Positions 5,422 through 33,154 of a stretch of DNA of 64,000 nt are shown piece after piece. The position numbers and the translations under genes were made by a program. How positions within the stretch are numbered: position 1 is the stretch's first letter; every line of letters begins with the position of its first letter. The stretch is from the IMG/VR virus record IMGVR_UViG_3300025405_000009, positions 134,848 to 198,847 of that record; one strand, given 5' to 3'. A model generated the notes under the pieces. That model searched no databases. It saw only the letters and a program-made list of their open reading frames with translations, and was not told the DNA's origin. This DNA is from a virus.

Positions 5422-5439
5422 GACTAAATAATATATGCT

Positions 5440-5679
5440 ATGACTCTTATGGATCACAATCCACCACATAATACAGCACCTATAATAGATCGCAATACCA
5501 TTAAATGGAGTGGGTATTTTTCAACGTCAGAGCAGGCAGATGAGCATTTAAAAGAACAGACTAAGCATCATGCAGAAAACGAAAATAAATTGGTCGTAAG
5601 TGCTAAGAAAGAGTTTGTAAACAGACATTTTAAAGGATATTTTCTTTATCGCTTTGTTGTAATATTAACAAATAAATGA
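5440..5679 (+). CDS. Hypothetical protein
   Basis: ORF track. Confidence 0.6.
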   Translation: MTLMDHNPPHNTAPIIDRNTIKWSGYFSTSEQADEHLKEQTKHHAENENKLVVSAKKEFVNRHFKGYFLYRFVVILTNK

Positions 5680-5888
5680 ACTTTAAAAAGATATTTGAAT
5701 CATTATTAACCGAACACATGCACTCTAAACAGAAGGCAGGCTATGTGGCTCATCCTGTTGATGGTCATCGCTGTGATGTATGTACGATGTGGAGACCTCC
5801 AAATAAGTGTTCTGCCGTATTCGGTGTTATTAAACCTGATGGTTGGTGTAAGTGGTGGAAGAGAACACATAGAAAGGATAGAAAATAA
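5676..5888 (+). CDS. High-potential iron-sulfur protein (HiPIP)-like, no Tat signal
   Basis: KAGY...P..G.RCDVC..WRPPNKC..V.G.I.PDGWCKWW: C-x2-C-x8-C-x12-C with GWC and the upstream Tyr of small HiPIPs. Confidence 0.82.
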   Translation: MNFKKIFESLLTEHMHSKQKAGYVAHPVDGHRCDVCTMWRPPNKCSAVFGVIKPDGWCKWWKRTHRKDRK

Positions 5889-6523
5889 TGAAGGTATACC
5901 TCGACATGGATGGGTTACTTGCTAACCTTTTTGATACAGTTTCCATGGGAATGATTGGTAAGCATTATAAAGCACTAACGGAACCTGAAAAAGAACATAC
6001 ACGTCAAATTTGGACAGATAGAGAAGGTAAAGCTAAAGAGTTCTTTCAAAAACAGGGTGGAGTTAAGAAGTTTTTTGCCGATCTTCCTACTTTTGGCCCT
6101 CTAACTGACGCTATTATTAACACAGTTGTGAAAGAGGTAGGAGGTTATAGTATTTGCTCCTGTCCTGCTGGTATTGATGAACAGGCTTCAGAAGCTGGAA
6201 AGAGAATTTGGATTCATAAGCACCTTAACCCACTTCCTGATGAAATGTCCTTTGTTAGAGATAAAACTATTAACGCAATTAATAAAGAAACAGGTAAGCC
6301 CAATGTTCTTATTGATGATTTTCCAAAATATATTAAAGAATGGAAAGCAGCTGGTGGTATTCCAATAGAAATGCGTACAGATAGCTTGAATAGTCCAGAA
6401 GAAGTAAGAGCATTTCTCACTAAGAAACTTAATGCAGCTAAAGAACAAATTGATGGTGTACAACCTGAACCTAAAATACCAACGTTTGAGCAATACGTAA
6501 GAAAAGTGTTGCATTCTCTCTAA
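5888..6523 (+). CDS. 5'(3')-deoxyribonucleotidase (NT5C, HAD superfamily)
   Basis: YLDMDGLL motif I; LIDD motif IV; W..AGG. Confidence 0.8.
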   Translation: MKVYLDMDGLLANLFDTVSMGMIGKHYKALTEPEKEHTRQIWTDREGKAKEFFQKQGGVKKFFADLPTFGPLTDAIINTVVKEVGGYSICSCPAGIDEQASEAGKRIWIHKHLNPLPDEMSFVRDKTINAINKETGKPNVLIDDFPKYIKEWKAAGGIPIEMRTDSLNSPEEVRAFLTKKLNAAKEQIDGVQPEPKIPTFEQYVRKVLHSL

Positions 6524-10639: not shown

Positions 10640-11215
10640 ATGTTAACGTTTGAACAGTATTTTAATCAATCTGAATCACCAGTTGTTATAGTTGGTGGTA
10701 TTCATGGTGATGAACCAGCTGGTAATATAGCTGCTAAAAAATATCAAGGTAGAGAAGGTATTATTGTAATAGCTGACGTTAATACAACTGGAGAGAGAAG
10801 ACTAGATGGAGTAGATCCAAATAGACATTTTGACAAAAAAGATTCTCTCCCAATTGAGGATGAAATCTTAGCTAAAATTGAAGAGTTAAAACCAAGGTTA
10901 GTTATCGCACTTCATGAAGATGATATAACAGATGAAGTTTATGCGTATTGTTCTCCAGGTATGAAAGATAAAGTTCAAGCTGTTTTAGCTGAATTAGGAG
11001 TACCGTTAGCAAAAACGGCAATAGGAGACAAAGCAGATAAGGGTGTTATTGCCCGTGGTCATTTACCAACAGCAGGAACACTTGAGAAAGCATTGAGAAA
11101 ACGTGATATCCCTAGTGTAACCATAGAGACACCTATTAAGTCATATAGCTTAGAGGATAGAGTGAAGTTACAAATACAAATAGTAAACGGATTACTTAAA
11201 TCTGTTAATAGATAA
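10640..11215 (+). CDS. M14-like Zn hydrolase (succinylglutamate desuccinylase/aspartoacylase family)
   Basis: GGIHGDEPAG, D.NR, LHED, TIETP. Confidence 0.78.
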   Translation: MLTFEQYFNQSESPVVIVGGIHGDEPAGNIAAKKYQGREGIIVIADVNTTGERRLDGVDPNRHFDKKDSLPIEDEILAKIEELKPRLVIALHEDDITDEVYAYCSPGMKDKVQAVLAELGVPLAKTAIGDKADKGVIARGHLPTAGTLEKALRKRDIPSVTIETPIKSYSLEDRVKLQIQIVNGLLKSVNR

Positions 11216-13169: not shown

Positions 13170-13343
13170 ATGACATTTAAAGAATACGTGACAGAAAAGA
13201 ATATAGATAAACCACGTCATCCCGGTATTCTCAAACGCCAGGTTAAGGGCAAATTAACCTGTTCAAAGGCTCGTAAATTAGAAGGTAAGGGCGGTCTAAC
13301 CGCTAAAGCAGCTCGTCGCTATCAAAATTATCACTGCCAATAA
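13170..13343 (+). CDS. Small basic protein with capsid-targeting-like N-terminus (MTFKEYVTE)
   Basis: Start moved to ATG 13170 because the track start lies inside tRNA-Cys; CATAAATA at 13157-13164. Confidence 0.7.
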   Translation: MTFKEYVTEKNIDKPRHPGILKRQVKGKLTCSKARKLEGKGGLTAKAARRYQNYHCQ

Positions 13344-32389: not shown

Positions 32390-33154
32390 ATGCTATCGTT
32401 TAAACAATATATTTCTGAACGTACCTATAGACTATCAGGTATTGAGCAACAGAGTGTAAACGATATTGTAGATTTCTATATGAATCTCTTTGATCCAAAG
32501 AGATTAAAAATGCCAATGGTTAAAATTATTAGCCTTGGACCTGAAAGAGTATATAAAGATTATATTAACAAGAAAGGATTTGTTACTATAGGGATTGTTA
32601 AGTTTCATGATGATGAGGATGATGAAGATAAAGAGATTCCTGTTTATGTAGGATTTGATAAAAATTCAGCAGATAAGGGTACATATATCTATGATGCTGA
32701 AACTAATGAAGAGTATATTGTATTACATTATTATAAGATAAAACACGATAGAGCATTTGTCAAAGATGCTTTAGTTCATGAACTCTATCATGCTAAACAA
32801 CCATATAAGATTATTGGAAAACATTACGGTAGAAGTACGTTAGATTATTATACTGATCCTGTTGAGCTTAATAATTATATTACAAATGTACTTGATGCTA
32901 TTCAAGAGGATTACTCAGAAGCTGAAACCTCAGAAGAACGACAAGAGATATTAAATGAACTAGAGGAATTTGCTCGCGGAGGCAGATTACCAAATAATAC
33001 ACTAGGTAATAAAATTAAGAAAATAGGTAAACATGAATTTGTTGAAACTCTTTTTAATAATAAAGACAATCCAAAAATTACTAAAGCATATCACAAATTT
33101 ATTAATAAACTTCACTGGCTATATTCAAATCTAAAAGATTACGAAAACAGATAA
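32390..33154 (+). CDS. HExxH (zincin-like) protein with MLSFKQYISE N-terminus
   Basis: ALVHELYHAKQ...YYTDPVE; GATAAATA 32377-32384. Confidence 0.65.
   Translation: MLSFKQYISERTYRLSGIEQQSVNDIVDFYMNLFDPKRLKMPMVKIISLGPERVYKDYINKKGFVTIGIVKFHDDEDDEDKEIPVYVGFDKNSADKGTYIYDAETNEEYIVLHYYKIKHDRAFVKDALVHELYHAKQPYKIIGKHYGRSTLDYYTDPVELNNYITNVLDAIQEDYSEAETSEERQEILNELEEFARGGRLPNNTLGNKIKKIGKHEFVETLFNNKDNPKITKAYHKFINKLHWLYSNLKDYENR

What the first reader, a model, noticed from the sequence alone, without database searches (positions are those of the whole stretch)
5676..5888. Phage HiPIP whose Tat signal is replaced by a capsid-targeting-like leader
Seen: MNFKKIFESLLTE followed by HSKQKAGYVAHPVDGHRCDVCTMWRPPNKCSAVFGVIKPDGWCKWW, with four Cys, GWC and the conserved Tyr in small-HiPIP spacing. 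Established: HiPIPs are periplasmic, Tat-exported [4Fe-4S] electron carriers. Seen: no twin-Arg or hydrophobic signal. The leader resembles the T4 internal-protein capsid targeting sequence (MKTYQEFIAE) and ends in L-x-E, like T4 prohead protease sites. Inference: a redox-active Fe-S protein packaged in the head and injected, or a cytoplasmic redox sensor. I know of no described phage HiPIP, but have not searched.
Basis: partly seen in the sequence, partly recalled or inferred. Interest (0 to 1): 0.78.

Follow-up and report, generated by a model that had tools for sequence, protein, structure and literature searches.

The report
Phage HiPIP with head-loading leader
An uncultured freshwater T4-like phage encodes a tiny iron-sulfur protein of the HiPIP family that lacks the usual export signal and instead starts with a short T4-style capsid-loading peptide that ends in the head protease's cutting motif. 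It is therefore probably carried inside the virus particle and injected with the DNA, which I found described for no iron-sulfur protein.

Summary
The 70-codon ORF at 5676-5888 (+) is real and conserved in 57 viral contigs. It is a HiPIP. All four Cys, the Tyr and the G-W-C/W aromatics are kept. Family profiles hit PioC (PDB 6XYV) at E 1e-10 to 7e-19. A confident AlphaFold model (pLDDT 87) matches only HiPIP structures. There is no twin-arginine or hydrophobic signal.

The phage is T4-like and has a gp21-type protease and gp23. Orthologues carry leaders nearly identical to the T4 internal-protein capsid targeting sequence; the one in cultured cyanophage S-SRM01 starts M-K-S-F-Q-E-F.

The strongest new evidence concerns module boundaries. 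In T4-like relatives where the HiPIP is fused to other modules, a [LIV]-x-E motif sits at a fixed offset after it in 28 of 29 proteins. A partner module has the same start whether it follows a leader or a HiPIP. In other phage types the domain is fused to portal, Mu-F and prohead-protease proteins.

Packaging, cleavage and Fe-S binding are all inferred, not shown. A T4 control shows that loose leader resemblance alone is unspecific. Literature searches and PHROGs gave no described phage HiPIP. This scan has already reported the same kind of gene on other DNA, with the same reading.

The parts
5676..5888 (+). HiPIP gene, 70 codons plus stop. It is the only HiPIP copy in the 198,847-bp phage genome.
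5676..5714 (+). Leader, residues 1-13: a predicted amphipathic helix ending L-T-E (with I-F-E at 6-8). Proposed capsid targeting propeptide, cut after Glu13.
   Evidence: Conserved in homologues. The helix has low model confidence (pLDDT 57) against 95-98 for the core. T4 IP leaders were taken from the T4 record.
5715..5858 (+). HiPIP core, residues 14-61. It aligns with residues 3-50 of mature PioC. Cys codons lie at 5772-5774, 5781-5783, 5808-5810 and 5847-5849.
5859..5885 (+). Basic C-terminal tail, residues 62-70 (net charge about +5). The proposed mature protein (residues 14-70) has pI about 10. In fused relatives a [LV]-x-E junction follows this tail.
5425..5432 (+). Late-promoter-like box T-A-A-A-T-A-A-T, 7 nt before the start of ORF79, directly after tRNA-Tyr. 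The same box precedes the portal, protease and scaffold genes.
5440..5679 (+). ORF79, of unknown function. Its stop overlaps the HiPIP start (ATGA). The pair is conserved in most close relatives.
   Evidence: no Pfam or PHROG match
5888..6523 (+). 5'-3' deoxyribonucleotidase-like (HAD) gene. Its start overlaps the HiPIP stop (TAATG). It has no leader.
13170..13343 (+). 57-aa gene with a T4-IP-like leader (M-T-F-K-E-Y-V-T-E) and a late box. Its body is fused behind the HiPIP in related phages, after an L-x-E junction.
10640..11215 (+). 191-aa gene with a weak AstE/AspA-like match. It starts M-L-T-F-E-Q-Y-F behind a late box and may be another leader-bearing protein.
32390..33154 (+). 254-aa gene of unknown function that starts M-L-S-F-K-Q-Y-I-S-E behind a late box. 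It is another leader-bearing protein.

Best explanation
The gene encodes a PioC-like minimal HiPIP, a [4Fe-4S] protein of about 50 core residues, that is not exported.

Proposed mechanism:
1. The protein is made in the infected cell, probably late, from a late-type promoter in front of the overlapping ORF79-HiPIP-nucleotidase trio.
2. It receives its cluster from the host Fe-S assembly machinery, as Tat-exported HiPIPs do before export.
3. Its 13-residue N-terminal amphipathic leader acts like the T4 capsid targeting sequence and docks it into the scaffolding core of the prohead.
4. The phage's gp21-type (Peptidase_S77) protease cuts after Glu13 (L-T-E).
5. This leaves a 57-residue, very basic (pI about 10) holo-protein among the packaged DNA, and it enters the next host with the DNA.

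Shown here:
- HiPIP family and fold.
- Absence of an export signal.
- Leader similarity to the T4 sequence.
- Presence of the protease.
- [LIV]-x-E at the module boundaries.

Inferred:
- Cluster binding.
- Late timing.
- Packaging.
- Cleavage.
- Injection.

What it does after entry is unknown. My best guess is a redox-active or DNA-associated early effector, by analogy with the T4 internal proteins.
For: (1) HiPIP identity. Profiles hit PioC 6XYV at 9.9e-11 and 6.6e-19, and hit R. marinus, R. tenuis and R. fermentans HiPIPs. The AlphaFold model has pLDDT 87 and pTM 0.70. The top 17 Foldseek PDB hits are all HiPIPs, with PioC at TM 0.77 and rmsd 1.6 Å. Clade members pass Pfam's HIPIP cut-off.

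(2) No signal. Thirty bacterial relatives in the same search have R-R signals, and they form their own clade next to the leader clade.

(3) T4-like phage. Peptidase_S77 scores 3.6e-35 and Gp23 1.5e-69 in this genome. S77 is also present in 5 of 5 near-complete relatives and in S-SRM01.

(4) Leader. S-SRM01 gp061 starts M-K-S-F-Q-E-F, against T4 IPs M-K-T-Y-Q-E-F and M-K-T-F-K-E-F. The strict heptapeptide pattern hits only 4 T4 genes, 3 of them the IPs. It hits 2 genes in S-SRM01, one of them the HiPIP. The reversed control gives 0 hits.

(5) Boundaries. [LIV]-x-E lies at a fixed offset after the HiPIP in 28 of 29 fused proteins of the two T4-like sub-clades, against 1 of 36 in other fusions. 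Stand-alone forms stop just before that point. The partner module begins K-[NS]-I-x-x-P-x-x-P-G-I-L-K-R-Q both after its own leader (window 13170) and after the HiPIP-L-x-E junction.

(6) Head association elsewhere. The domain is fused to portal, Mu-F, DUF2213 and the XkdF prohead protease.

(7) Late box before the operon, associated with leader genes (OR 4.3-6.2, p 0.025-0.005).

(8) The mature form has pI about 10.

(9) Literature. The T4 CTS is a 10-20-residue propeptide removed by gp21, and T4-type proteases cut after Glu.
Against: - No virion proteome, N-terminal mapping, transcript or metal analysis exists. The S-SRM01 paper reports no virion mass spectrometry.
- This gene's own leader is less T4-like than those of its orthologues.
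- In the T4 control, the loose leader pattern matched 10 of 265 genes, including lysozyme e, thymidylate synthase and gp61.1, and only two known CTS proteins. N-terminal resemblance alone is therefore unspecific.
- In-genome enrichment of the loose pattern is modest: 12/263 N-termini against 8/699 internal Met, p 0.002.
- The neighbours are nucleotide-metabolism and recombination genes, not head genes, and the co-transcribed nucleotidase has no leader.
- The boundary evidence comes from only two related clades, so the 28 cases are not independent.
- One cross-check led nowhere: the phiM12 homologue of another leader-bearing protein lacks the leader and is not annotated as a virion protein.
Confidence: 0.55

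Rival explanations
1. It is a cytoplasmic HiPIP-like redox protein that works only inside the infected cell as an auxiliary gene, for example as a one-electron partner or sensor for nucleotide or DNA-modification enzymes. In this view the N-terminal helix is just part of the protein and is never packaged.
For: The gene overlaps a deoxyribonucleotidase gene on one side and lies among RecA/KaiC-like and other non-structural genes. This synteny is conserved in most close relatives. Other scan notes place orthologues beside nrdAB or a 2OG oxygenase (not checked by me). Loose leader-like N-termini also occur on unpackaged T4 enzymes.
Against: It does not explain the fixed-position [LIV]-x-E on both sides of the module in fusions. 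It does not explain the shared mature start of the partner module, the near-identity of orthologue leaders to the T4 CTS, or the fusions to portal, Mu-F and prohead protease. The high potential of HiPIPs makes them poor reductants in a reducing cytoplasm (established knowledge). The adjacency to the HAD gene is not backed by homology to the HAD modules fused elsewhere.
Confidence: 0.3
2. The four Cys bind zinc, or form a purely structural knot. The domain is then a small stable adaptor derived from a HiPIP, with no Fe-S cluster and no redox role, whether packaged or not.
For: Metal content cannot be read from sequence. The single sequence falls below Pfam's HIPIP cut-off. The domain appears as a generic module in many architectures.
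Against: The cluster-shielding aromatics are conserved together with the Cys: Tyr23, the aromatic after C-x-x-C-T-M, and G-W-C-x-x-W/Y/F. The core is 35% identical to PioC over 49 aligned columns, with rmsd 1.6 Å. PioC is an experimentally characterised [4Fe-4S] HiPIP (PMC7462912).
Confidence: 0.1
3. The shared leader is a recognition peptide for a modifying enzyme (RiPP-like), or a by-product of promoter/start-codon repeats and AT-rich translation starts, and not a sorting signal.
For: An earlier scan note found such a case in phage RB43 (a radical-SAM tag). Many genes of this phage start a few bases after a promoter. Four leaders share the codons ATG-TTA-ACG-TTT.
Against: No radical-SAM gene was found in the genome. 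The leaders of the M-x-F-N-x-L-V type use different codons, so conservation is at protein level. Upstream DNA differs between leader genes. None of the 29 neighbours of S-SRM01 gp061 has the leader. The motif also occurs at internal junctions, far from any promoter.
Confidence: 0.05

Closest known systems
PioC of Rhodopseudomonas palustris TIE-1 (PDB 6XYV), the 54-residue HiPIP of photoferrotrophy, and other small HiPIPs (R. tenuis 1ISU, R. marinus 3H31)
   Same: It has the same four Cys ligands with the same spacing, the same Tyr, the same P-P and G-W-C motifs and the same predicted fold. The phage core aligns with residues 3-50 of mature PioC.
   Different: PioC is made with a twin-arginine signal and works in the periplasm. 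The phage protein has no signal, has a 13-residue acidic-ended leader and a basic tail, and sits in a T4-like phage. Redox properties are untested.
Phage T4 internal proteins IPI, IPII and IPIII, with their capsid targeting sequence and gp21 processing
   Same: A short N-terminal leader of the same type (near-identical in orthologues) ends in hydrophobic-x-Glu. The mature product is small and basic. The gene lies in a tRNA-rich variable region, as T4 ipI does. The phage encodes the same protease family (PMC5694885, PMC10229621).
   Different: The bodies are unrelated, and no T4 internal protein is a metalloprotein as far as I know. Packaging and cleavage are proven for T4 but not here.
Polyvalent and Mu-F/portal-fused cargo proteins of phages (Iyer et al. 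2017, PMC5512222)
   Same: In non-T4 phages the HiPIP-like domain is fused to portal, Mu-F, ParB-like nuclease, NUDIX, Acb1-type 2H phosphoesterase and prohead-protease domains. That paper reads such architectures as virion-delivered effectors.
   Different: The paper does not mention a HiPIP or any Fe-S domain. The window's protein is a stand-alone leader-tagged module, not a fusion.
Cytoplasmic Fe-S proteins encoded by phages, such as cyanophage ferredoxin or mycobacteriophage WhiB-like proteins (from my own knowledge)
   Same: They are also phage-encoded small Fe-S proteins that depend on host cluster assembly.
   Different: They belong to different folds and cluster types, act inside the infected cell, and carry no capsid-targeting leader.

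Membership tests
HiPIP (Pfam PF01355) | Four Cys ligands in the order C-x2-C-x(8-16)-C-x(12-13)-C | tested here: met
   C33, C36, C45 and C58. C33, C36 and C45 are invariant and C58 is at least 90% conserved in 116 sequences.
HiPIP (Pfam PF01355) | Conserved Tyr before the first Cys, and aromatic residues shielding the cluster (aromatic after C-x-x-C, G-W-C, and an aromatic three residues later) | tested here: met
   Y23 is invariant. W39, W57 and W60 are conserved or replaced by F/Y. They align with the same positions in PioC.
HiPIP (Pfam PF01355) | Significant sequence match to the family model | tested here: inconclusive
   The single sequence scores 16.7 bits against a cut-off of 22. Clade relatives score 22.6-23.8 bits. 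The family profile against solved HiPIPs gives 6.6e-19 to 6e-4.
HiPIP (Pfam PF01355) | HiPIP fold | tested here: met
   The model has pLDDT 87. The top 17 PDB matches are all HiPIPs, with TM up to 0.77 and rmsd 1.1-1.6 Å. This is a predicted fold, not a solved one.
HiPIP (Pfam PF01355) | Binds a [4Fe-4S] cluster cycling 3+/2+ at positive potential | not testable with these tools
   This needs expression, UV-visible and EPR spectroscopy, and electrochemistry.
HiPIP as known in cells (periplasmic electron carrier) | Twin-arginine signal peptide and periplasmic location | tested here: not met
   There is no R-R and no hydrophobic segment. Thirty bacterial relatives do have them.
T4-type capsid-targeted internal protein | N-terminal propeptide of about 10-20 residues resembling the T4 CTS | tested here: met
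   Orthologue leaders match the strict T4 heptapeptide pattern, which is near-unique in the genomes searched. The window's own leader is a more divergent member of the same series.
T4-type capsid-targeted internal protein | The propeptide ends in the prohead-protease motif (hydrophobic-x-Glu), and the phage encodes a gp21-type protease | tested here: met
   L-T-E at residues 11-13. Peptidase_S77 is present in the genome. The motif lies at a fixed offset in 28 of 29 fused relatives. The rule for T4-type proteases comes from PMC5694885, and L/I-x-E comes from established T4 knowledge.
T4-type capsid-targeted internal protein | Made when proheads assemble (late transcription) | tested here: inconclusive
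   A late-type box lies 7 nt before the first gene of the overlapping trio, and directly before the HiPIP start in six relatives. No RNA data exist.
T4-type capsid-targeted internal protein | Present in virions in processed form and ejected with the DNA | not testable with these tools
   No virion proteome exists for this phage or for S-SRM01.

The most novel reading that the evidence does not exclude
Phage particles of several lineages carry a genuine [4Fe-4S] HiPIP domain inside the capsid. In T4-like phages it is a leader-tagged, protease-released internal protein. In others it is part of portal, Mu-F or prohead-protease proteins. It is delivered with the DNA as a redox-active effector, sensor or iron payload. 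This would be the first Fe-S protein known to be packaged in a virion.
Probability: 0.35. Interest if true: 0.85.

Novelty: new variant of a known kind. Interest (0 to 1): 0.68.

Why it matters
HiPIPs are textbook periplasmic electron carriers of bacteria. Here the same fold has lost its export signal, spread through T4-like phages behind a capsid-loading leader, and been fused to portal, Mu-F and head-protease proteins in other phages.

If confirmed, this would add a metal-cluster protein to the short list of proteins that phages inject. It would give a redox or iron dimension to early infection and to virion chemistry, which is relevant to ideas such as the Ferrojan Horse hypothesis about iron in phage particles. 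It would also show that the T4 targeting-and-cleavage system is a general, modular cargo loader far outside coliphages.

It is directly testable, because one carrier, Synechococcus phage S-SRM01, is in culture.

Tried and rejected
- The first AlphaFold run with 21 close homologues gave a useless model (pLDDT 46). It was redone with 116 sequences.
- A PSSM and loose regular expressions for the leader gave only modest enrichment in this genome. The T4 control showed many false positives, so I do not rest the case on them.
- The direct link of leader genes to A-T-A-A-A-T-A was not significant (p 0.13). The refined late box was significant.
- PHROGs and Pfam gave no function for ORF79 or for ten other leader-bearing proteins.
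- tblastn of the HiPIP, of a leaderless relative and of a protease fusion against 50,697 cultured phage records found the domain only in S-SRM01.
- The phiM12 cross-check was uninformative.
- A possible HiPIP-HAD nucleotidase functional link was rejected, because the fused HAD modules are not similar to the neighbouring gene.
- The radical-SAM tag idea was rejected, because no such gene is present.
- The search for related loci failed with the broad alignments and found nothing in genome contigs with P0064.
The genomic context of the GH19 fusions, the long polyproteins and the leaderless forms could therefore not be examined.

Full report
**Observation.** Window 5676-5888 (+) holds a 70-codon ORF. 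Its start overlaps the stop of a 79-codon ORF (ATGA). Its stop overlaps the start of a 211-codon gene (TAATG) that PHROGs assigns to 5'-3' deoxyribonucleotidases. The protein has Cys at 33, 36, 45 and 58, Tyr23 and G-W-C at 56-58. It has no arginine pair and no hydrophobic segment. The window is the last 64 kb of a 198,847-bp viral contig with 34% G+C, about 91% complete, and it carries 17 tRNA genes.

**Is it a HiPIP?**
- Alone, the protein scores below Pfam's HIPIP cut-off (E 0.0088, 16.7 against 22 bits). It hits the NCBIfam Iro HiPIP model at 1.8e-6.
- Twenty metagenomic homologues give an alignment in which the ligands, the Tyr and the aromatics are conserved.
- That profile finds PioC (6XYV) at 9.9e-11, covering residues 3-50 of the 54-residue mature PioC.
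- A library-wide profile search found 2043 relatives at E <= 1e-3.
- A 116-sequence alignment hits PioC at 6.6e-19 and three other solved HiPIPs.
- With this alignment AlphaFold gives pLDDT 87 and pTM 0.70. The core is at 95-98 and the first ten residues at 57.
- The 17 best Foldseek matches in the PDB are all HiPIPs, with PioC at TM 0.77 and rmsd 1.6 Å.
- Several clade members pass Pfam's cut-off.

I accept family membership by sequence and predicted fold. Cluster binding is inferred.

**What kind of phage?** The genome encodes a gp21-type prohead protease (Peptidase_S77, 3.6e-35) and a gp23 capsid protein (1.5e-69), inside a T4-like head module. The only cultured phage with a homologue among 50,697 records is the T4-like cyanophage S-SRM01. 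Its gp061 is annotated as hypothetical. PHROGs has no family for the protein.

**The leader.** T4 IPII and IPIII start M-K-T-Y-Q-E-F-I-A-E, and IPI starts M-K-T-F-K-E-F, taken from the T4 record. The literature describes these 10-20-residue propeptides as capsid targeting sequences removed by gp21. T4-type proteases cut after Glu.
- S-SRM01 gp061 starts M-K-S-F-Q-E-F-L-F-E, and none of its 29 neighbours has such a start.
- A strict DNA pattern for M-K-x-[FY]-[QK]-E-[FY] hits four T4 genes (the three ip genes and gp61.1), two S-SRM01 genes (one of them the HiPIP) and one gene in this genome. The reversed control gives no hits.
- Among representatives, about 45 sequences carry an 8-13-residue amphipathic leader that ends in [LIVF]-x-E just before the K-x-S-K start of the core. 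Thirty bacterial sequences carry R-R signals, and 31 have no extension.
- On a tree of the core, 29 of 32 leader forms fall in one clade (sub-clade support 100/96), next to a clade of 17 Tat forms. The alignment is short, so the deep branching is unresolved.

**Module boundaries, the strongest evidence.** Sixty-five proteins continue for 30 or more residues after the HiPIP.
- In the two T4-like sub-clades, [LIV]-x-E lies at a fixed offset after the last Cys. The offset is 10 in the K-R-S-H-R type (10 of 10, one of them at offset 11). It is 13-14 in the G-G-A-Y-G-K-R-G-K type (18 of 19).
- The middle residue varies freely, and stand-alone forms end just before this point.
- Among the other 36 fusions, only one has the motif at those offsets.
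- The module that follows the HiPIP in P0016, P0017, P0019 and P0021 and in loci L022, L028, L029 and L039 exists in this window as a separate 57-codon gene (13170-13343) with its own leader, M-T-F-K-E-Y-V-T-E. After either the leader or the HiPIP junction, the body starts at the same residue.
- Likewise, long polyproteins (P0028, P0029) have hydrophobic-x-E immediately before a HiPIP that starts like the stand-alone P0040.
- All five near-complete relatives tested, of both sub-clades, encode Peptidase_S77, as do T4 and S-SRM01.

**Other architectures.** Outside T4-like phages, the domain is fused to the following:
- portal proteins, with or without Mu-F or a ParB-like nuclease;
- Mu-F alone;
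- NUDIX plus DUF2213;
- XkdF-type prohead proteases;
- Acb1.

Within the G-G-A-Y-G sub-clade it is fused to LysM plus GH19. These are the architectures that Iyer et al. read as virion-delivered proteins, but that paper mentions no HiPIP.

**Timing.** The box T-A-A-A-T-A-[AC]-T lies within 24 nt upstream of 41 of 263 crude genes, including the portal, protease and scaffold genes. These sites hold 35% of all its occurrences in the genome. It lies 7 nt before ORF79, the first gene of the overlapping trio. Six relatives have T-A-T-A-A-A-T-A directly before the HiPIP start. Leader-pattern genes are enriched for the box (p 0.025, or 0.005 if the HiPIP is counted through its operon).

**Cautions.**
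- The loose leader pattern is unspecific. In T4 it matches 10 of 265 genes, including lysozyme e and thymidylate synthase. In this genome it matches 12 of 263 N-termini against 8 of 699 internal Met.
- The gene's neighbours are not head genes.
- Synteny with ORF79 and the nucleotidase is conserved in most close relatives.
- No experiment bears on packaging.
- A rival tag function, as a radical-SAM recognition peptide, finds no enzyme in this genome.

**Earlier scan notes.** The same kind of gene was already reported on other genomes, with the same reading, and head-tagged polyproteins were reported in this genome and in related ones. I treated these as leads and re-derived the evidence here.

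**Verdict.** This is a real, conserved, signal-less PioC-like HiPIP in a T4-like phage. It is bounded by the motifs that T4-type head proteases cut, and it is most likely a capsid-loaded, processed and injected Fe-S protein. My confidence in that full chain is about 0.55. A purely cytoplasmic role is the main rival, at about 0.3. I found no description of phage HiPIPs in the literature searched.

Noticed in passing
metagenome proteins P0069, P0116, P0125, P0132, P0084, P0073, P0092, P0111, P0081, P0159, P0076: A HiPIP-like domain is fused to phage portal, Mu-F, ParB-like nuclease, NUDIX plus DUF2213, XkdF prohead protease and Acb1 domains. The polyvalent-protein survey PMC5512222 does not list any Fe-S or HiPIP domain.
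   Followed up: partly
P0038, P0041, P0056 (metagenome proteins): These proteins have a leader-tagged N-terminal HiPIP, then a [VIL]-x-E junction, followed by LysM and a GH19 muramidase-like domain. They may be a packaged cell-wall hydrolase.
   Followed up: no
window 13170-13343: A 57-codon gene has a T4-IP-like leader and a late box. Its body (P-G-I-L-K-R-Q ... F-L-N-Y-H-C) has no Pfam or PHROG family and is fused behind the HiPIP in related phages.
   Followed up: partly
T4 record NC_000866, 18966-19130 (minus strand), locus L082: T4 gp61.1, a 54-residue hypothetical protein next to the primase gene, starts with the same seven residues as internal protein IPI. Either it is an unrecognised capsid-targeted protein, or the motif is not exclusive to packaged proteins.
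   Followed up: partly
window 5425-5432 and genome-wide: A late-promoter-like box T-A-A-A-T-A-[AC]-T lies 4-15 nt before the start codons of 41 of 263 crude genes, including all recognised head genes. No Shine-Dalgarno sequence is obvious.
   Followed up: partly
window 5440-5679: ORF79 has no known family and is translationally coupled to the HiPIP gene. The pair is conserved in most close viral relatives, so it may be a functional partner.
   Followed up: partly
genome G000:C1:85188-92084 (loci L067): This is a cluster of leader-bearing genes (94, 257, 858, 50, 82 and 142 codons). The 142-codon gene starts M-K-T-F-K-E-Y, as T4 IPI does, and has a weak match to a Zn-protease family.
   Followed up: partly
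S-SRM01 NC_070963, 82315-83145 (gp167): This is the only other S-SRM01 gene with the strict T4-type leader heptapeptide. It is a 276-residue hypothetical protein.
   Followed up: no
window 10640-11215: A 191-codon gene with a weak AstE/AspA-type (succinylglutamate desuccinylase-like) match starts M-L-T-F-E-Q-Y-F behind a late box, between tRNA genes.
   Followed up: no
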